Part shown: positions 4,758-12,901 of the stretch, piece after piece
Layout: each line of letters opens with the position of its first letter
How positions within the stretch are numbered: the stretch's first letter is position 1
IMG/VR virus record: IMGVR_UViG_2885972705_000001
Span: 7,679-71,678 of that record
From: a virus
Lineage: Duplodnaviria; Caudoviricetes
DNA length: 64,000 nt
Reading direction: 5' to 3' (one strand)
Notes under the pieces: model-generated
Seen by the model: only the letters and a program-made list of their open reading frames with translations
Database searches by the model: none
What the model was told of the DNA's origin: nothing
Position numbers and translations under genes: made by a program

Positions 4758-5095
4758 TATCGAAACCTCATAACAAGAAGTCTTTGCGGGCTCAGTCCGA
4801 TAGGACCCGTTGAGGTTGCAGGATTCCCAAAGTAAATAGTTACACCACCAGAAGAAACTCGCGGAGTGTATTGGATTGCATAGTTACTTTGCGCGGTAGT
4901 GTCGTACGCCGCGATAGGAATACAAACAGCAGAATGAGTTGATGGATCAATTCCGGGAATAGCGATATATCGAGTTCTCCCTGGCGCAGGAATGCCGGAT
5001 CGGACTATCTCCGAATAGACAATCCGCACAGTGAAGGACGTTTCATCCAGCTCAAGGAGGCCAGTCGGCCCCCATGTCCGATTTCCAGAGATCAT
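4757..5095 (-). CDS. Tail-tip associated protein
   Basis: Translationally coupled to the J stop. Confidence 0.6.
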   Translation of the reverse strand: MISGNRTWGPTGLLELDETSFTVRIVYSEIVRSGIPAPGRTRYIAIPGIDPSTHSAVCIPIAAYDTTAQSNYAIQYTPRVSSGGVTIYFGNPATSTGPIGLSPQRLLVMRFR

Positions 5096-8000
5096 GCGGA
5101 AAGATCCCCCCACTGGTAGCGCTTAACGTCATTTTCATCGTAAACCTTGCCGCCACGGTTATTGATGGTCTGGCGACCACCGCCACCAGTCGCGCTATTC
5201 AACTCGAACTCACCGGTGACGAAGTTGATCATCAGCCCCATCCTCCCGGGAACGTAGTTTTCCGACTGGATGCTCTGGGTCAGCTTTGCCACACCGATTG
5301 AAGCGTCCTGAATGAACGCCGAGTTCATGAACACCTGCCCGCCCTGCACCACAAACGGCGTGGTGATCGCCCCGCCAGCAATGGTGTTCACCACCGCAAA
5401 CCGATCAGCACTCACCACGAACTGGCTTTGCAGTAAGCCGTCGGCGTTCTGCTCGATGCCCAGGCCGATCCCCGCTGCCACGTACTGGCCGTTGGCGTTG
5501 ACCTGCATCTTCACCGCCCACATTGTGGACAGCTTGCCGTCGATGTCTGCTGTAGCCCTGGCCGTGACCTGGATCGACGCCTTGTTCTTCCAGTCGTTGA
5601 TGGCACTGGCCAGGTCGCCCTCATCCGAGCCGTCACGATCACCGCCGGCGATGGCTTCAATCGTGGTGGACTGGGATGCGATCGACTTGTTGGTATCAGC
5701 AAGCGACTGGGTGACGGTCTGGACGGCTGCCGAGTTGGTATCGACGTTGCTCTTAAGCTGGTCGATACGCTCAGTAGTTGCCAGCTTGTCGGTGGCCACC
5801 ACCTGCTCCAGCGTGGTCAGTGCAGCCTTGTTGGCCCCCACCGCCGCATCCAGCGACGTAGTGCGCTCAACCATTGCCCGGTTGTCGGAAGCCTGTACCT
5901 TCACCTGCTGCGCAAACTTGGCGGTGGCGTCCCAACTTTTCACCGCGTCGGCAAGGTCACCCTCCCCGTCATTCTCGCGCCAGCTTGCCTGGAGCGATTG
6001 CAGCGCCGAGGCGTTCGCTGTGACCTTGCCGTCCACGGTTTCGATTGAAGTCTTGTTCTGCTGGATCTGGAGTGCCATGGCCTGGGTTGTTTGGGCAATG
6101 GTGCCCATGTTGAACCAGTACTCGACAGCGGGCGGCGGGGTATCCACCGGTACCGCCTTGAGTGCCTGCCACAGGTTCTGCCCCGTGCGAACAATCTGCC
6201 CGGTGGTGTAGGTCTTGGTCGGAACGTAGACCAGGGCGTCCGTTACGTGGTCGATCAGGTCTTCCAGTTCCTGCTTGGCTTGCTCCAAACGATCATTGAC
6301 CGAGCCCGGACCGGAGCCGGAGATCAGCTCGATCTCCTCAAGCAGCTCCTTGCCCAATTCGGATTCGCCAATCTGGCCGGCGATCATCTCCAGAATCGGC
6401 GCAGCATTCGCGCTGGCCTGCCCCGGTACACCATTGACCACCGGATAGAACGGGCCGACGTTGCCGGTGCGGTCCACCAGGCGCGCCCAGAAGAAGAACT
6501 GCGCACCGGCCTTGAGGGCCTGCATGCTGTGGTTCGCCTGGGGGTAGGCCAAGTCGGCAAGCTTGGTGGCCACTGACAGGTCATTGGCTGGGCCGTACCA
6601 CAGCTCGGTCCGCTGGGTGTCCTCGGCACCGGGCGGGAAAGCCCACCGGATGCCGATGCCGAACAATTCGCTGGTGGTGGTCAGGGACGCAACCGCAGGC
6701 GGCAGGCCCACCTTCCCTTCCAGATTGGTCAGGTTGGAGCTCTTCCAGATCGACGAAATTTCAAAGGCGCTCACCGAGCGAACCCGGGCCAGATAGGCGC
6801 CAGAGTAGATGCCGGTGAGGTCCACGCTCGTCGAACCAGTGCGCTGCAGCTTGATCCAGTTGCCGCTGTCCTTGCGCCACTCCACGTCATAGGCGATCGC
6901 ACCCGAAACAGCAGGCCACGAGATGTTCATGGTGCTGATTGCCAGGCCTTGGTCCACGGAGTAGTTCGAGGTGATGCTAACGCTCGCCGGCGCCGGAACC
7001 ACGGTGATGGGTACAACACTGATCGGACGATCCTCCAGGCGCGCGCCGGTATCGATGTGATCGAACTTGCTCGGGTCGTACTGCACGGCCGAGATCTCGA
7101 ACACGCCGGCTTCCGGCCGGGCCACGCTCACCACGCGGTAAAGCGGGATGGCCAGGTCGTCTGCATCCAGCGCCCACACCAGTTCGCGCTCAGGCGGGAC
7201 GGAGTAGGCCAGGGTTACGGTGACTTGCCGGCCGCTGACCAGTTGCACGGTGCGGCCCTCGCACTTGCCATCGGGCAAGTTGAGGATTAGCCGGTCGCCA
7301 GGCTTGGCCTGGGTGTCGCGGTCCAGGGTGATGACCTTGCCATTCACCGCCGAGATGCGTCCGCCCACAGAACGGCCGGCCAGCAGTTCGTCAGCAATAG
7401 GGATCACGTAGCCGGGCAGCGGGATACGCCCGTCGAGGCCGACCTTGAAAGTGACGGCGCGGTCTTTGGAGTTCGTGAGCAGCGCCCACTTACCGCGGCG
7501 CTGCGCCTCCGACTCACGGGTGCAGCCGATGGCGCTGATCTCCAGCGGGTTGTCGCCGTAGCGCCGCTGGAGCTTCGAATCCGTGACCGCCGTGACATCG
7601 GTGTCGTAGTTGTTGGCCGGGTTGTCGTAGCTGATCAATGCCCGGGTGTATCGCGTGCGCTCCGAGGCGCTGGAGTAGGTGAACTTGCCGTCGATCACGT
7701 TCGCCCTGGTATAGGCGAAGTCGAAGTCGGTGGCGCGCGGCATGTCCGCCAGCGTGAAGACCTGGCCCTGCGCCCAGTAGGTCATGCCACGGTAGATCGC
7801 CGAGATATCGCGCAGCAGCGACCAAGCGTCAGCCTTGCTCTGCAGGTTCAAGTTGCAGAGGAAGCGCGGTTCCATGCCGCCTTTTCCGTCCGGCACCAAT
7901 TGGTCGCAGTATTGGGAAATACGATACAACTCCCAAATATCAACCATCCACGGCTTGATGCGACGGCCCAAGCCGAAGCGGTCGGCGGTGGTGATGTCGT

Positions 8001-8862
8001 AAGTCATCCAGACAGCATTGTCAGTCCATGCCTGCTTGAATGTACCGTCCCATATCCCGGTGTATGAACGCGACGCGGGGTCGTAGTTACTCGGTACCTG
8101 CATCTTCTTCAGCTTGGTCTCGACCGTGACGGCCGGGATGCTGCGGAACTGCTCGGCTGAAAATTCGATGTAGAGCAGCGCTGTATTTGGATAGCGAACC
8201 TTCGCATCGATCACCTCGGTGAAGCCGGCGATCTGCATGGTGTCGGAGATTTTGTTGTTGTTCTGGTTGATCGTCAGTCGCGTGATCCTCATCAGCCAGC
8301 CAGTGGTCGCCTTTGGAAGATCAATGCGGCGTGTTCGCTCGTACAGGCTGGTGGTCTTGCCGTCGACAGCCTCGCTCAGCACCTGCTGGTAGGTCCCACC
8401 ATCGGTGGCCAGCTCAACCTTGTATTCAATGCGGTACCCATTGACGTTGCCGCTAGAGTCCACCGACTGAAGCGCCGGCCACGCGAAACGCACTCGTACT
8501 GCGGAGAGCTGGGTGTTGCTAATGGCTCGGACCCACGGCGTACCGCTGCGCAGCTCGGTATTGATCGTTGTCTCGTTCTCGATCGATGGAATGCCCTGGA
8601 TATAGCTCTGATCCACGGCACCGGTGCGCCACTCCCACTTCACGTTCGGGAAGTTCATGTTGCCTTGAGGGTCTTGCAGGGGCGTGTTGTCGAGATAGAT
8701 GTCTTTGGCAGTTGGCGTGCCCTCGAACTCACCCTCGCCCACGGCAATGAGCATTTTTGCGATAGCAACAGAGCGCAGACTGTCCGGGGCCTCAGTCGGC
8801 GTTTTTGGTTTACCTTCGCCGCCTTTGGCGCCGTGTATATCGATGTTTTGTGCTGCGCCCAT
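5092..8862 (-). CDS. Tail tip / host-specificity protein J
   Basis: 1256 aa; GEGEFEG, YPNTAL, YCDQLVPDGKGG, FN3-like repeats, SQFVVSADRFAV C-terminal domain. Confidence 0.95.
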   Translation of the reverse strand: MGAAQNIDIHGAKGGEGKPKTPTEAPDSLRSVAIAKMLIAVGEGEFEGTPTAKDIYLDNTPLQDPQGNMNFPNVKWEWRTGAVDQSYIQGIPSIENETTINTELRSGTPWVRAISNTQLSAVRVRFAWPALQSVDSSGNVNGYRIEYKVELATDGGTYQQVLSEAVDGKTTSLYERTRRIDLPKATTGWLMRITRLTINQNNNKISDTMQIAGFTEVIDAKVRYPNTALLYIEFSAEQFRSIPAVTVETKLKKMQVPSNYDPASRSYTGIWDGTFKQAWTDNAVWMTYDITTADRFGLGRRIKPWMVDIWELYRISQYCDQLVPDGKGGMEPRFLCNLNLQSKADAWSLLRDISAIYRGMTYWAQGQVFTLADMPRATDFDFAYTRANVIDGKFTYSSASERTRYTRALISYDNPANNYDTDVTAVTDSKLQRRYGDNPLEISAIGCTRESEAQRRGKWALLTNSKDRAVTFKVGLDGRIPLPGYVIPIADELLAGRSVGGRISAVNGKVITLDRDTQAKPGDRLILNLPDGKCEGRTVQLVSGRQVTVTLAYSVPPERELVWALDADDLAIPLYRVVSVARPEAGVFEISAVQYDPSKFDHIDTGARLEDRPISVVPITVVPAPASVSITSNYSVDQGLAISTMNISWPAVSGAIAYDVEWRKDSGNWIKLQRTGSTSVDLTGIYSGAYLARVRSVSAFEISSIWKSSNLTNLEGKVGLPPAVASLTTTSELFGIGIRWAFPPGAEDTQRTELWYGPANDLSVATKLADLAYPQANHSMQALKAGAQFFFWARLVDRTGNVGPFYPVVNGVPGQASANAAPILEMIAGQIGESELGKELLEEIELISGSGPGSVNDRLEQAKQELEDLIDHVTDALVYVPTKTYTTGQIVRTGQNLWQALKAVPVDTPPPAVEYWFNMGTIAQTTQAMALQIQQNKTSIETVDGKVTANASALQSLQASWRENDGEGDLADAVKSWDATAKFAQQVKVQASDNRAMVERTTSLDAAVGANKAALTTLEQVVATDKLATTERIDQLKSNVDTNSAAVQTVTQSLADTNKSIASQSTTIEAIAGGDRDGSDEGDLASAINDWKNKASIQVTARATADIDGKLSTMWAVKMQVNANGQYVAAGIGLGIEQNADGLLQSQFVVSADRFAVVNTIAGGAITTPFVVQGGQVFMNSAFIQDASIGVAKLTQSIQSENYVPGRMGLMINFVTGEFELNSATGGGGRQTINNRGGKVYDENDVKRYQWGDLSA

Positions 8863-8921: not shown

Positions 8922-9521
8922 CTACATCTGGTCTTCGGCGTATATCGCGGCGCTAATAATCGCGCCGCCGACCCTGCGCTTGCCGTAGCAGAGCGGGACC
9001 GGGTTGCCGGATGCAGTTGTGTTCTGCGCCGAGCCAAATGCATATCCAGGCTGGTTTTCGGGCGCAGCGCTCATCTTGAGGCCTGCCGCCTGCGGACTAA
9101 GCATTTGGATTACGCCCCCAGCAGCACTACCGATACCGCCCGCTATGAGGGCTGCGCCTGTAGTTGTTGTCGACCCGAACGCAAAAAAACCTACCACAAT
9201 CAATATGGCACCCAAAATGGTCTGCATCAGGCCTGCGCGCTTTCGGCCCGTAATTACCGGCGCTATACGGATTTCTCCGGAACCGCCAAATCCTAATTCT
9301 TTTTCTTCAAGATTTTTTGACCCTCGAAACACGGCAAACTCAATGCCGCGAGACTTGGCGTTCGACAGGAACCGCTCGAAGCCAGGGATCTGTACGCATA
9401 GTGCCTTGATAGCCTCGGCTGGGGACTTAACTGACAACCTGAAAGATCTTCCAAATTGCCTAAGCTGCCCATAAAGCAAGATGGTAGTCATCGGCTGATA
9501 ATTAATTGCGAGTGCTGACAT
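8922..9521 (-). CDS. Tail assembly protein I
   Basis: SPAEAIKALC, IRIAPVITG, GNPVPLCYG...GGAIISA. Confidence 0.92.
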   Translation of the reverse strand: MSALAINYQPMTTILLYGQLRQFGRSFRLSVKSPAEAIKALCVQIPGFERFLSNAKSRGIEFAVFRGSKNLEEKELGFGGSGEIRIAPVITGRKRAGLMQTILGAILIVVGFFAFGSTTTTGAALIAGGIGSAAGGVIQMLSPQAAGLKMSAAPENQPGYAFGSAQNTTASGNPVPLCYGKRRVGGAIISAAIYAEDQM

Positions 9522-9568
9522 GGTTTTCTCCAGGCGAAAAAAAACCCGCTGTAGCGGGCTTAATGGGA

Positions 9569-9970
9569 TCAATAAGCGGTAGCTGAAATATCTGGACCGC
9601 CGGGCGACATGGATATTCTTCTTCTCAAAACTTCTCCGCTTTTTATTTCGACATCGCGCTCAACCATCATCCCTCCCCCGCAAGCTGCGCTTGGCTTCGC
9701 GCCAAGCACTACTCGGCCGGCCTTAACACCAAACCTAGCCACCTCTCCCGAGGAGAATTCGGCAGCAAGCTCCCCATTGATATAGAAACGGTAATTGCAT
9801 CCAGATCCAAACATCCCGCCATCTCGGGTAACAATGAGTTGAGCATCGGACTTTGTAGCGAAGGCATAAAGCCGAGAGCTTGGCACCGGATCGGCCTTGT
9901 CGGCAGATATAGGCGAACTAGAGCAGCCGACCAAGCTCAAAATAAAAAAGAATCCTACGAACAGTTTCAT
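9569..9970 (-). CDS. Phage lipoprotein moron
   Basis: Signal peptide with LVGC lipobox. Confidence 0.8.
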   Translation of the reverse strand: MKLFVGFFFILSLVGCSSSPISADKADPVPSSRLYAFATKSDAQLIVTRDGGMFGSGCNYRFYINGELAAEFSSGEVARFGVKAGRVVLGAKPSAACGGGMMVERDVEIKSGEVLRRRISMSPGGPDISATAY

Positions 9971-10025
9971 GTCGCTCCCTCGTTGAGAAATGGCGAGACT
10001 TTATCACCAAGCAGAGAGCAACACG

Positions 10026-10044
10026 AAAGCCCGCAATGCGGGCT
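10026..10044 (-). terminator. Intrinsic terminator closing the RAMP/array transcript
   Basis: AGCCCGCA-T-TGCGGGCT hairpin followed by TTCGTGTT on the minus strand. Confidence 0.7.
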
Positions 10045-10104
10045 ATATCAATCGAAAACTTCTAACACTGCAATGCCTCCTCCAAGAAGAGACATTACGC
10101 TGTT

Positions 10105-10172
10105 ATCAGCCCATACCAAATCAAACCACACCCCGCCGGACCTAGCCGCGACTTGCCGGACCAGAACCTGCC
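10105..10172 (-). repeat. GGY-NN pentamer tract A
   Basis: GGC-AG GUU-CU GGU-CC GGC-AA GUC-GC GGC-UA GGU-CC GGC-GG GGU-GU GGU-UU GAU-UU GGU-AU GGG-CU GAU. Confidence 0.92.
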
Positions 10173-10224
10173 AGCGGCTTCTGCCACCGCAATGCCGACT
10201 GATTCCAATCGGCATTACGCTGTT

Positions 10225-10287
10225 GTCAGCCCTCACCTCGACATGCCCGACCTAACCAGGCCTCGCCCAACCTTGTCTCGCCACGCC
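10225..10287 (-). repeat. GGY-NN pentamer tract B
   Basis: GGC-GU GGC-GA GAC-AA GGU-UG GGC-GA GGC-CU GGU-UA GGU-CG GGC-AU GUC-GA GGU-GA GGG-CU GAC. Confidence 0.92.
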
Positions 10288-10338
10288 ACATGATGCGTTC
10301 GCACCGCAATGCCCTCTCATAGAAAGGACATTACTCTG

Positions 10339-10800
10339 CTATTGACCAAGAGCCTTTCGGGTCATGCCCTGGAGCGCGGAAAACTTTGCTACAGCGTCAA
10401 GGTTTGCACGTCGCTGATCATCGGTAAGCTCCGTTATCCTCAGATTCCTCAGCTTTTCTCCACTCCCGCGAAACGCCTTCCGGACATTCCGGCCCAGCTC
10501 ACTTACCGCAACTTCTGTCTGCTCATGAGGCGGCACCCAGCGGTAACCACGGCCGCGCACAGACTGAAGGCAGACCTGATGATGCTTGAGCAAGTCCGAT
10601 TTAAATGCCTCCACGTTCGCAAGCCATTCGAACTGACGCTCACGAAACTTCTCAACGGTCAGCGACTTCGAGTCAGTCATGGAAGGCATTCCGAAACGCG
10701 CCTCCAACCACTCATGCCCGACCAGATCGCCGTATTTGAATTCCTTGAGGAAGTCATCAACAGCTTGCTTGTAGCTTGGGTGCTTTGTCAGTTCAGACAT
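10339..10800 (-). CDS. Accessory protein of the RAMP/array locus, winged-helix-like (153 aa)
   Basis: Start MSELTKHP overlaps the RAMP gene end; LQSVRGRGYRW wing-like motif; helical C-terminus. Confidence 0.7.
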   Translation of the reverse strand: MSELTKHPSYKQAVDDFLKEFKYGDLVGHEWLEARFGMPSMTDSKSLTVEKFRERQFEWLANVEAFKSDLLKHHQVCLQSVRGRGYRWVPPHEQTEVAVSELGRNVRKAFRGSGEKLRNLRITELTDDQRRANLDAVAKFSALQGMTRKALGQ

Positions 10801-11368
10801 ATGCCACCTCGAAACGACCGAAGCGCGGCCGGTATTCACAGACGCCAATCAACAGTCCTGAGTCGGTGATCGCCTTTTTTGCTTCCTCTATGTTGAGTAC
10901 GTCAGCGTTGATCGCGACTTCCAGCTCGACGCCCCATTCAAGAAAGATTGGCCGGTAACGCATGATCTTCGCCTGCCCAACCTTAACCCCGCGACAATCA
11001 ACGAATCGCTGATCCTCCCAAAGAGAATCGGGAGTTGTCGGCCCAGAGAACTCCAGCTTTGCCTTGTCAGTCATTACGACCGCTCCGCGCTTCCATTGCG
11101 TGCCCAGCTTCTGAAGCTTCGCGCCAGCCAGGAACGTCGCATCGAAGTTAGCGCCGGGTACAAAGAATCCGAGCTTTTCATCGTGGTAAGCGCCGGCGAT
11201 AAATTCAGAGCGAGCGATGGCAAGATGATCGTCGTCCGTCTTCTTGCGCTTTCCGGTCAATTCCTTATGAGCCTTTGTTGCGGGATTCAAAGGGTTGGCC
11301 AGCTTGTCGCTGTGCATCATCAGCGGAGACGTGCCGGTAATTTTTAGCGTGACAAGTTCCATGCTCAT
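10793..11368 (-). CDS. Minimal RAMP/Cas7-like RNA-binding protein (Vipr-like)
   Basis: LKITGTSPLMMH (RAMP first strand), FFVPGANFDATF (like IPGSSLKG), C-terminal glycine loop GLLIGVCEYRPRFGRFEV. Confidence 0.8.
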   Translation of the reverse strand: MSMELVTLKITGTSPLMMHSDKLANPLNPATKAHKELTGKRKKTDDDHLAIARSEFIAGAYHDEKLGFFVPGANFDATFLAGAKLQKLGTQWKRGAVVMTDKAKLEFSGPTTPDSLWEDQRFVDCRGVKVGQAKIMRYRPIFLEWGVELEVAINADVLNIEEAKKAITDSGLLIGVCEYRPRFGRFEVAYV

Positions 11369-12228
11369 GCTGCGTCCCTCCGAGCAGCCTGGAAAAGAAA
11401 TCGGCAGCGCAGATTTTCAGTAGCAAGCGCCACAAACTCAAACATTTCCGCTGTGGAGACTGGCATATCCCTGTCCACAAGCATCGACTGCATGAACTGC
11501 TGCCGGGTCAAAACGAACGCACCCATTGGCACGGGCGTGACCTGCCGATTGCCGTGATGGTCGGCGCTGACGAGATATCGCTCACACTCTCCAAGTTTGT
11601 CGGGGATATCGAAGGACTTGCCCTGCCCCTTCGGAATGAACTCACCTTCCAGGACGGCGTAGGCCGCGATGAAGTTGCACGCCGACTCGAACTGGCTTGC
11701 AGGTATCAGCTCAAGGCGCGGCACGTTGAAACGCGTGTGCACTGCTGAATAAATACGCGCGGAAGCACTGCGCTGAATGGATGCTGGAAGATGTGCCACT
11801 TTGTGGCGCGCCAAGCCTTTCAGGGCATTCGTCTCGGTCATGTCGACCAGGTCATCCATCAGCGTCTTCATTCTATTGCTGGAGTCTTGGTAGCTGCCCT
11901 GCTTGCGAATCGCCGGAAGGACTTCAGCAGTCACCCACTTCTTGAAGCGCTTGGCTTCAGCCTTGCGGCTGCGCAGGATGGCCGAGTAAAGGCCGGATTC
12001 GTTTATGACCAGCATTTCTTGGTCGCCGCCAGGGGTACGCACAATCTGCGTACCCTTTTCGTCTTCGTCCAAGTTTCGAGTCATGTCACCAGCAATACGG
12101 TACTCCAGGGCGGACGACACATCTGCCGCCACGAACCACGGCTGATCATCAATCAGCAGGGTCCGCACCTGTTGCTTGCCGAACTTGAAGGGGATGACAT
12201 TGGATGTGGCTGTGCTAATATCGCTCAT
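11365..12228 (-). CDS. BRO-N domain antirepressor (Ant-like)
   Basis: PWFVAADV, INESGLYSAILRSRKAEAKRFKKWVTAEVLPAIRKQG. Confidence 0.9.
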   Translation of the reverse strand: MSDISTATSNVIPFKFGKQQVRTLLIDDQPWFVAADVSSALEYRIAGDMTRNLDEDEKGTQIVRTPGGDQEMLVINESGLYSAILRSRKAEAKRFKKWVTAEVLPAIRKQGSYQDSSNRMKTLMDDLVDMTETNALKGLARHKVAHLPASIQRSASARIYSAVHTRFNVPRLELIPASQFESACNFIAAYAVLEGEFIPKGQGKSFDIPDKLGECERYLVSADHHGNRQVTPVPMGAFVLTRQQFMQSMLVDRDMPVSTAEMFEFVALATENLRCRFLFQAARRDAA

Positions 12229-12295
12229 GACGTTTTTCCTAGTAGATTGACGTTCTGCTTCACAGGCCTCAAGCGTTGGCGCGCTTGGGGCTTTT

Positions 12296-12448
12296 TCATG
12301 CCTGTTCATTTTTCGCTTTTCCCTTGGCTTGCTGAATAATCTCAACCAGTTGCGCGTTCATCGAGCGGTTCTGCTCGCGCGCCTGCTGTTTCAACCATTC
12401 CATCAGCTCACCAGGGAATCTAACCTGCGTTCTTGCTAGATCGCTCAT
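12296..12448 (-). CDS. Arc-family ribbon-helix-helix repressor (50 aa)
   Basis: Manual translation MSDLARTQVRFPGELMEWLKQQAREQNRSMNAQLVEIIQQAKG; AAGGAGG RBS. Confidence 0.85.
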   Translation of the reverse strand: MSDLARTQVRFPGELMEWLKQQAREQNRSMNAQLVEIIQQAKGKAKNEQA

Positions 12449-12458
12449 AACCCCTCCT

Positions 12459-12511
12459 TAGTGACACGCAGTCACTATACAGCCGATATTTCACAGTGAC
12501 AAGATAGTGAC
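12459..12511. promoter_or_regulatory. Arc/Mnt-type operator in the divergent promoter region
   Basis: Palindrome TAGTGAC-N5-GTCACTA (12459-12477) plus AGTGAC half-sites at 12495 and 12506. Confidence 0.65.
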
Positions 12512-12901
12512 ATGGAAGAAATTTATAGATCTCAATTCCGCCTCCCCTACTCTCTTTATGAGCAGTTGAAGGCTTCCGCTGACAAGAATCGCCGCTCAGT
12601 GAACGCGGAGCTAATCGCGCGCCTGGAGCAAAGTTTTGAGGTTCAGCAACAAGATGCTGAGGATTCCCCTCGATTTAAGATCGATGGAGACGCCTTTAAT
12701 CTTGGGAAATATGAGCCTGGGGCTGACGCAGTGAAATTTGCAGGCGGTCCGGCAGCCGAAAAGGAAAACTCCTTTATGGCGAGTTTGCTAGAACTGATTA
12801 ATGAGTATCGCCCCGCAGAGCTCAAAACGTTGCCGCCCGATAACGCAAAACCCAAACCTAATACGGGGCCAGAGCCCCGCAAGCGCTACCCGAAGAAGTG
12901 A
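12512..12901 (+). CDS. Arc/Mnt-family repressor
   Basis: QFRLPYSLYEQLKASADKNRRSVNAELIARLEQSF. Confidence 0.85.
   Translation: MEEIYRSQFRLPYSLYEQLKASADKNRRSVNAELIARLEQSFEVQQQDAEDSPRFKIDGDAFNLGKYEPGADAVKFAGGPAAEKENSFMASLLELINEYRPAELKTLPPDNAKPKPNTGPEPRKRYPKK

What the first reader, a model, noticed from the sequence alone, without database searches (positions are those of the whole stretch)
10225..10287. Tract B decodes, as a gapped NN-x code, to a site in tail-tip gene J
Seen: the variable dinucleotides read GT GA AA TG GA CT TA CG AT (GA GA CT). Taken as codon positions 1-2 they spell V-D/E-K/N-W-E-L-Y-R-I. The J gene at 7944-7918 (minus) reads GTT GAT ATT TGG GAG TTG TAT CGT ATT (VDIWELYRI). 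That is 16 of 18 specified bases, with every skipped base at the wobble position. A rough hand estimate puts chance at well under 1% across both strands of 64 kb. Inference: the true target is the VDKWELYRI-type allele of related phages, and skipping wobble bases makes the guide insensitive to ordinary synonymous change.
Basis: partly seen in the sequence, partly recalled or inferred. Interest (0 to 1): 0.93.

Follow-up and report, generated by a model that had tools for sequence, protein, structure and literature searches.

The report
VIPR guide RNA aimed at rivals' J gene
This stretch is a guide RNA of a recently described phage system (VIPR) whose two-letters-on, one-letter-off code spells a conserved site in the tail-tip gene J of rival Pseudomonas phages, while the carrier's own J gene differs at that site.

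Summary
The kind of system is already in print.

**What the locus is.** Bases 10230-10289 (minus strand) are 12 NNGGY pentamers of a VIPR guide RNA (vrRNA). They sit in a two-guide array just downstream of vipr (10793-11368) and vap (10339-10800). The Vipr protein matches PDB 36pp "SUSP1 Vipr protein" at E 7e-46. VIPR and its "1-nt skip" code were described in three 2026 bioRxiv preprints.

**The resident J site.** The match at 7918-7944 is 16/18, or 18/24 over the whole guide. Alone it is weak: 8 of 1000 shuffles reach 16/18.

**Database test.**
All 120 hits encode VDKWELYRI inside J homologs.
- Two shuffled guides gave 0 hits and 0 hits. A 2-nt-skip version gave 1.
- Among the 79 closest J relatives reaching the site, chosen without using the site, 75 match 18/18 while wobble bases vary freely. 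The single poor match (15/18) is the only one that carries VIPR.

**Second guide.** Tract A does the same for tail gene I.

**Novelty.** This is a new member of a known kind. The scan has met VIPR on other DNA (528 notes, at least 396 genomes).

The parts
10793..11368 (-). vipr gene (191 aa), the minimal RAMP protein that binds the GGY triplets of the guide
   Evidence: PDB 36pp_D 'SUSP1 Vipr protein', E 6.9e-46. tblastn to SUSP1 CDS YP_009199429.1: 42% identity, E 8e-45. That accession is named as Vipr in 10.64898/2026.10.15.759431. It also matches phrog_4652. Contact residues are conserved.
10339..10800 (-). vap gene (153 aa from the ATG at 10800; the ORF is open from TTG 10848)
   Evidence: phrog_5926. 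BLASTP to the SUSP1 gene just after vipr: 24% identity, E 8e-12. It overlaps vipr by 8 nt, as in phage Medea1 gp08/gp09.
10302..10342 (-). leader copy of the hairpin repeat, just after the vap stop and before guide B
   Evidence: the repeat finder family D1/D3; sequence read.
10230..10289 (-). vrRNA-B guide tract: 12 NNGGY units (the finding). Units 2-10 form the core that matches J.
   Evidence: Self-match 24/24 at 3-nt skip.
10185..10229 (-). 3' tail of vrRNA-B: a small GCUG/CAGC stem plus a 13-bp hairpin
   Evidence: RNAalifold on 34 tails: 17 pairs, 11 of them with compensatory changes.
10110..10174 (-). vrRNA-A guide tract: 13 units. Units 3-11 match tail gene I of rival phages.
10066..10109 (-). 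3' tail of vrRNA-A
10028..10044 (-). terminator-like hairpin that ends the array
   Evidence: scan_promoters_terminators.
7918..7944 (-). resident J site VDIWELYRI, a mismatched (self) version of the guide B target: 16/18 in the core, 18/24 over 7912-7947
9031..9057 (+). resident I site (NQPGYAFGS, coded on the minus strand), a mismatched version of the guide A target: 14/18
   Evidence: alleles.
5092..8862 (-). tail-tip / host-specificity gene J (1256 aa); the site is residues 307-315
   Evidence: ORF. Medea1 homolog is annotated 'host specificity protein J'. Residue index.
8922..9572 (-). tail assembly gene I (216 aa)
   Evidence: Pfam Lambda_tail_I, E 3e-6.

Best explanation
Tract B is the guide part of a type II-like VIPR RNA (vrRNA).

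Published for SUSP1 and the P. fulva prophage, inferred here: Vipr protomers bind one pentamer each, hide the GGY triplets and present the NN pairs. These pairs hybridise with double-stranded DNA in which every third base is skipped, and the complex silences transcription.

Shown here by sequence: the nine central NN pairs of tract B spell codon positions 1-2 of VDKWELYRI. This is a conserved site at residues 307-315 of the tail-tip protein J in related Pseudomonas phages and prophages that lack VIPR. The guide has the sense of the J coding strand, so it would pair with the template DNA strand and cannot pair with J mRNA. The carrier's own J reads VDIWELYRI with a TTG leucine codon. That breaks two of the 18 core positions and keeps it below the published 80% cut-off.

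Inferred: together with guide A (against tail gene I, about 1.1 kb away on the other strand), the prophage blocks tail-tip production of competing relatives and spares its own.
For: **System identity**
- Vipr matches a solved 'SUSP1 Vipr protein', E 6.9e-46.
- Residues that the cryo-EM preprint says hold G1, G2 and Y3 and the DNA are kept: H17/K33/R39/K82/R138/R179 become H19/K35/R41/K84/R139/R180, D177 becomes E178, W178 becomes Y179.
- A vap homolog is adjacent.
- 78 of 80 vipr-homolog loci carry pentamer tracts on the gene's strand (189 tracts), against 0 tracts in 2.13 Mb of control loci.
- The tail hairpin has 11 of 17 pairs with compensatory change.

**Target**
- 186 of 186 sites lie in J HSPs.
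- 119 of 120 genome hits are the J site.
- Controls gave 0, 0 and 1 hits.
- 75 of 79 unbiased J relatives score 18/18 in the core, and 74 of 79 score 20/24 (83%) over the whole guide, which passes the paper's 80% rule.

**Self versus non-self**
- Carriers of guide B (window, L002, L004) score 15-16/18 on their own J.
- Four VIPR loci without guide B (L001 Medea1, L005, L040, L044) score 18/18.
- No match of 80% or more exists anywhere in the 64-kb window, as the paper reports for its own systems.
Against: - Only 9 of 12 NN units match. The first unit and the last two sit at chance level, so whole-guide identity is 83%, just over the published cut-off.
- No binding, silencing or expression was shown for this locus. 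RNA-library contigs that hold a near-identical module cannot prove transcription.
- Mismatch tolerance of VIPR is not given in the text I read, so weak binding to the resident 16/18 site cannot be excluded.
- The carriers with mismatched J are only two lineages: the window/L002/L004 group, and L014. Background nucleotide divergence in I and J is high (60-90%), so 'recoding to escape' is an inference, not a demonstrated event.
- The database hits are many copies of one homologous site, not independent events.
Confidence: 0.88

Rival explanations
1. The J match is a coincidence, and guide B has another target or none.
For: Inside the window the match is weak: 18/24 is reached by 25-66 of 1000 shuffles. 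Three of the 12 units do not match even in the 'perfect' targets.
Against: Two shuffled guides gave 0 hits each and the 2-nt-skip version gave 1 hit, against at least 120 for the real guide. Every real hit but one lies at one in-frame site of J. The neighbouring guide A independently hits gene I in the same contigs: 85 loci carry both sites.
Confidence: 0.02
2. The guide acts on the prophage's own J (self-regulation of late tail genes, for example keeping them silent in the lysogen). The 16/18 site would be the real target.
For: The resident site is the best match in the window. The mismatch tolerance of VIPR is unknown to me.
Against: Relatives without VIPR carry the perfect site, while carriers are the ones with mismatches. 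This is the opposite of what self-regulation predicts. The paper found no self hits at 80% or more for 96 P. fulva-clade guides.
Confidence: 0.05
3. Guide B is an ageing or partly decayed guide. It once matched J over all units and now binds poorly, so the match is historical rather than functional.
For: The flanking units are at chance level. GAGAC and ATGTC units depart from GGY.
Against: The same 9-unit core is kept in L002 and L004. It is tracked by a variant in L014 (TT at the Leu codon) that perfectly matches 11 TTR-Leu J sites among the loaded loci. Guide A shows the same design of a 9-unit core with unmatched ends, which suggests a rule rather than decay.
Confidence: 0.05

Closest known systems
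VIPR type II systems (Escherichia phage SUSP1; Pseudomonas fulva prophage). bioRxiv 10.64898/2026.04.26.720920, .720927 and 10.64898/2026.10.15.759431.
   Same: vipr plus vap gene pair; vrRNAs made of YNNGG repeats with a structured 3' tail; 1-nt-skip targets in coding DNA with skips at wobble positions; targets on either strand; targets in rival Pseudomonas prophages; no self-target at 80% or more.
   Different: The main text I read names lysis-lysogeny regulators and other VIPR systems as P. fulva-clade targets, not tail genes I and J. Here only a 9-unit core matches. The tail is two plain hairpins; the pseudoknot described for the SUSP1 clade was not tested. Data S3 and fig. S15 were not visible to me and may list these targets.
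Class 1 CRISPR-Cas backbone (Cas7 filament on crRNA)
   Same: A RAMP-fold protein polymerises on a guide RNA; a thumb breaks the duplex periodically; hairpin repeats separate the guides.
   Different: No cas1/cas2 or other defence-model hits were found (PADLOC). The guide is noncontiguous (2 of every 5 RNA bases pair). The variable tracts carry fixed GGY triplets. The system is encoded by a phage.
Prophage superinfection-exclusion / immI-type modules (P22 mnt-arc-ant region; recalled from general knowledge)
   Same: The system sits beside an Arc-like gene and a Bro-N/Ant antirepressor. Its likely role is competition between related temperate phages.
   Different: Specificity comes from an RNA guide against a structural gene, not from a protein acting on a repressor or on DNA entry.

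Membership tests
VIPR (type II-like) | Vipr protein: a minimal RAMP homologous to SUSP1 Vipr | tested here: met
   PDB 36pp_D 'SUSP1 Vipr protein', E 6.9e-46 over residues 3-189. tblastn to SUSP1 CDS YP_009199429.1, which is named Vipr.
VIPR (type II-like) | Residues that read GGY and hold the DNA (H17, K33, R39, K82, R138, D177, W178, R179 of SUSP1) | tested here: met
   Alignment A1: six are identical, D becomes E and W becomes Y. The residue list is from 10.64898/2026.04.26.720927, Results part 1.
VIPR (type II-like) | Adjacent vap accessory gene | tested here: met
   BLASTP to the SUSP1 gene after vipr, E 8e-12. Its DNA-binding fold was not tested.
VIPR (type II-like) | vrRNA of 9-16 YNNGG repeats with hypervariable NN | tested here: met
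   12 and 13 units. These are the only two such tracts in the 64-kb window. 78 of 80 related loci have them.
VIPR (type II-like) | Conserved structured 3' tail after the repeats | tested here: met
   17 consensus pairs, 11 with compensatory changes, in 34 tails. Pseudoknot not tested.
VIPR (type II-like) | Natural target obeying the 1-nt skip rule at 80% NN match or more | tested here: met
   20-21/24 in 119 of 120 viral hits. 20/24 in 74 of 79 unbiased J relatives. The 2-nt-skip pattern gave 1 hit.
VIPR (type II-like) | No self-target at 80% or more | tested here: met
   Best in the window is 18/24 for guide B and 16/26 for guide A.
VIPR (type II-like) | vrRNA is expressed and co-purifies with Vipr; the RNP binds dsDNA and represses transcription | not testable with these tools
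   Contigs from RNA libraries of 3 studies hold a 95-99% alike copy of 9954-11676, but contigs cannot show transcription.
CRISPR-Cas | cas gene set with adaptation genes and contiguous spacers | tested here: not met
   No PADLOC, Pfam or NCBIfam hit for the two proteins. No Rfam family. The variable tracts carry fixed GGY every 5 nt.

The most novel reading that the evidence does not exclude
The VIPR cassette and its two targets may form a tightly linked 'weapon plus immune alleles' module. Both guides are aimed at the two genes immediately downstream of the cassette (I and J) as they occur in cassette-free relatives. The carrier's own copies escape by the few changes a wobble-blind guide can see: Lys->Ile and Leu CTN->TTG in J, and a divergent I allele. 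Rival lineages and guides appear to chase each other: the L014 guide has TT at the Leu codon and matches TTR-Leu J alleles. This would be a natural record of escape and counter-escape for a noncontiguous guide. It would also add structural tail-tip genes as a VIPR target class that is not named in the main texts I read.
Probability: 0.5. Interest if true: 0.55.

Novelty: new member of a known kind. Interest (0 to 1): 0.42.

Why it matters
It gives an independent, purely natural confirmation of the VIPR 1-nt-skip code in a Pseudomonas prophage. Hundreds of target sites differ at third codon positions yet stay identical at the read positions.

It names a concrete target: the tail-tip genes I and J of rival phages. 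A cultured phage, Medea1, carries the perfect J site, so the claim is directly testable.

It also shows what self-immunity looks like for such a system, and one route by which targets escape (a switch of leucine codon family) and guides follow.

It does not reveal a new kind of system. The class, the code and the wobble argument were published in 2026 preprints.

Tried and rejected
- **Ring-protein or G-quadruplex idea.** Before finding the preprints I considered a TRAP-like ring-protein binding site or two-tier G-quadruplexes for the GGY period. I dropped both once Vipr homology and the target data were in.
- **Rfam.** Nothing on the array. The only hit was a weak terminator-like match at 9536-9609 (E 0.69).
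- **Tandem Repeats Finder.** It did not report the pentamer tracts.
- **Protein libraries.** Pfam, NCBIfam and PADLOC gave nothing for vipr or vap.
- **Expression.** RNA-library runs were found, and four were laid. Contigs of 3 studies cover 9954-11676 at 95-99% likeness, but inside different flanks. They are contigs, so this shows neither transcription nor RNA ends. The uncovered parts mean nothing.
- **Local recoding.** Sliding identity of the window against seven relatives showed no special divergent patch at the J site; background is 70-90%. The I gene belongs to a divergent lineage shared with L431. I therefore do not claim site-specific recoding for I.
- **Not run.** Structure prediction, complex prediction, protein-atlas and large protein searches, because a solved homolog answered the question.
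- **Not tested.** A 0-nt-skip control and a 3-nt-skip control. The latter would only find the arrays themselves.
- **Not visible.** Supplements of the preprints (data S3, fig. S15) were closed and may already list I/J targets.

Full report
**1. What is in the sequence.**
Between the minus-strand ORF 10339-10848 and the lipoprotein gene 9569-9970 lies about 300 nt of non-coding DNA. It holds three copies of a roughly 41-nt hairpin repeat at 10066, 10185 and 10302, spaced 119 and 117 nt apart. Read on the minus strand, the two stretches between them are strict 5-nt repeats of the form NNGGY. Tract B has 12 units (10289->10230) and tract A has 13 units (10174->10110). They are the only such tracts in the 64-kb window.

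**2. What it is.**
- The upstream 191-aa protein (10793-11368) has no Pfam, NCBIfam or PADLOC hit but belongs to phrog_4652.
- A literature search led to bioRxiv 10.64898/2026.04.26.720920. I read its abstract, Results, and Methods sections 20, 26 and 27. It describes VIPR systems: a minimal RAMP protein (Vipr), an accessory gene (vap), and vrRNAs made of 9-16 YNNGG repeats plus a structured 3' tail. The NN pairs read double-stranded DNA with one base skipped between pairs, usually the wobble base.
- The window's protein matches PDB 36pp chain D 'SUSP1 Vipr protein' at E 6.9e-46. It also matches SUSP1 CDS YP_009199429.1, the accession called Vipr in 10.64898/2026.10.15.759431 (passages only).
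- The SUSP1 locus shows pentamer tracts before and after the two genes, as that paper describes.
- The residues that the cryo-EM preprint (10.64898/2026.04.26.720927; abstract and Results part 1) assigns to GGY and DNA contacts are conserved.
- The next gene resembles the SUSP1 gene after vipr at E 8e-12.
- Of 80 viral contigs with a vipr homolog, 78 carry tracts on the gene's strand (189 tracts). The two without tracts are cut off soon after the gene. 2.13 Mb of control loci has none.
- The tail folds into a small GCUG/CAGC stem plus a hairpin, with compensatory changes in 11 of 17 pairs across 34 tails.

Membership in VIPR is therefore met on every feature I could test.

**3. Is the J match more than chance?**
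Inside the window the evidence is only moderate. The J site is the best 1-nt-skip match (18/24; next best 16). However, 8 of 1000 shuffled guides reach 16/18 in a 9-unit sub-window, and 25-66 of 1000 reach 18/24.

All 120 hits translate in frame to VDKWELYRI within a J-like context.
- The 221 loci brought in by the guide B and guide A scans hold 186 such sites. All 186 lie inside tblastn matches to the window's J.
- In genome contigs (one genome per species) the scan again reached 120 rows. Of these, 119 are VDKWELYRI inside J matches, mostly in Pseudomonas species. One, in a Chloroflexi MAG, contains a stop codon and is a chance hit.
- Two shuffled-order versions gave 0 and 0 hits. The same dinucleotides with 2-nt gaps gave 1 hit.

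**4. An unbiased sample.**
I fetched the 80 closest J relatives using J residues 325-654, which exclude the site.
- 79 reach the site. 75 match the core 18/18, three match 17/18 (TTR leucine), and one matches 15/18. That one, L429, is the only locus of the 80 with vipr and vap. It is the same contig as L002, which carries guide B.
- The 79 sites comprise 46 different 36-nt sequences. Positions 1-2 of the nine core codons are almost invariant, while third positions vary freely.
- Over all 12 units, 74 of 79 score 20/24 (83%). This passes the preprint's 80% rule. The resident site (75%) does not.
- The first unit and the last two are at chance level in every target.

**5. Self and non-self.**
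Eight VIPR loci reach their own J site.
- The three with guide B (window, L002, L004; one lineage) have VDIWELYR[I/V] with TTG, scoring 15-16/18.
- L014 carries a variant guide and has VDKWSLYQI.
- The four without a B-type guide (Medea1, L005, L040, L044) have the perfect 18/18 allele.
- The L014 variant has TT in place of CT at the leucine unit. It matches 11 TTR-Leu J sites among the loaded loci.

This fits target escape followed by guide change, but it rests on two carrier lineages. Background divergence in these genes is high, so I hold it as inference.

**6. The neighbouring guide.**
Of those, 119 of 120 lie in matches to tail gene I, as NTPGYAFGS on the strand opposite the guide.
- 85 loci have both sites, always on opposite strands and mostly about 1.1 kb apart. 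None of the 221 loci has vipr.
- In the unbiased sample, 66 of 71 I sites score 18/18. The resident I scores 14/18.
- Across 128 distinct tracts from the 80 VIPR loci, 16 have a perfect 9-unit hit in 3.64 Mb of I/J neighbourhoods, against 0 of 128 shuffled. One of them spells PATKAHKEL, a motif that also stands in this window's vipr.

**7. How it most likely works.**
- Shown by sequence: the guide, its protein partner, the target site in rivals, and the mismatched self site.
- Taken from the preprints for SUSP1 and P. fulva: a Vipr filament forms on the vrRNA, the GGY triplets are hidden, the NN pairs bind DNA with every third base skipped, an R-loop triplex forms, and transcription is repressed on either strand.
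- Inferred here: the prophage silences I and J of related phages, so that they cannot build tail tips, while its own alleles are spared. Guide B has the sense of J mRNA, so an antisense-RNA mechanism is excluded for it.
- Not settled by my data: whether the system acts from the lysogen (exclusion of superinfecting relatives) or during infection of a lysogen (attack on a resident prophage). The cassette sits next to an Arc-like gene and a Bro-N antirepressor.

**8. Novelty.**
The class, the code and the wobble argument are in print (three 2026 preprints; a fourth, 10.64898/2026.10.21.760802, was seen only in the search listing). This scan has noted VIPR 528 times in at least 396 genomes.

In the passages I saw, the P. 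fulva-clade targets are given as lysis-lysogeny regulators and other VIPR systems. 'Host specificity' does not occur in the first preprint, and 'Pseudomonas' does not occur in the third. The supplements that list targets were closed.

I therefore file this as a new member of a known kind. Three details may be new: tail-tip genes as targets, linked immune alleles, and a 9-unit effective core.

Noticed in passing
window 10110-10174 (-) and 9031-9057 (+): The tract A core (units 3-11) perfectly matches NTPGYAFGS in tail gene I of rival phages, on the strand opposite the guide. It gave at least 120 viral hits, and 66 of 71 unbiased relatives score 18/18. The resident I (NQPGYAFGS) scores 14/18.
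   Followed up: yes
window about 11258-11284 (-), inside vipr: A guide in another VIPR locus has a perfect 9-unit match that spells PATKAHKEL. This motif is also present in the window's own vipr. It may be a rival guide aimed at vipr, as the preprints describe for other clades. The match to this window's DNA itself was not scored.
   Followed up: partly
L014 4191-4265; L043 2294-2368: These are variant B-type guides. L014 has TT at the leucine unit and matches 11 TTR-Leu J sites in the loaded loci. L043 has TT at the tyrosine unit and has no match in the loaded loci.
   Followed up: partly
window 10230-10289 and 10110-10174: In both guides exactly nine consecutive NN units match the target. 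The one or two units at the 5' end and the two units next to the tail are at chance level. This may be a design rule of this clade.
   Followed up: partly
L008-L051, last tract of many arrays (for example L009 4276-4330): The last vrRNA of many arrays has a different tail: GGGCCGTAAACGGC followed by a terminator-like GC hairpin and a T run. The small stem changes from GCUG/CAGC to GCCG/CGGC.
   Followed up: no
L431 (IMG/VR contig), I site 2336, J site 3447: This relative has no vipr, vap or tract within reach. It still carries the resistant-type I allele (NQPGYAFGS, 14/18) and a TTG-Leu J site (17/18). It may be an escaper, or a lineage that lost the cassette.
   Followed up: partly
window 11365-12901: The cassette lies after a Bro-N/Ant antirepressor gene. 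In Medea1 the same cassette follows an Arc-family gene, with a divergent HTH regulator nearby, all between tail genes K and I. The layout resembles P22 immI.
   Followed up: no
window 9954-11676: Contigs from RNA libraries of three studies hold a 95-99% alike copy of array + vap + vipr, joined to different flanking sequence. The module therefore sits in more than one prophage background.
   Followed up: partly
L060-L081 (56-58% identical Vipr): In these more distant relatives the pentamer tracts lie upstream of vipr rather than downstream, and many units are GGA or GAA rather than GGY.
   Followed up: no
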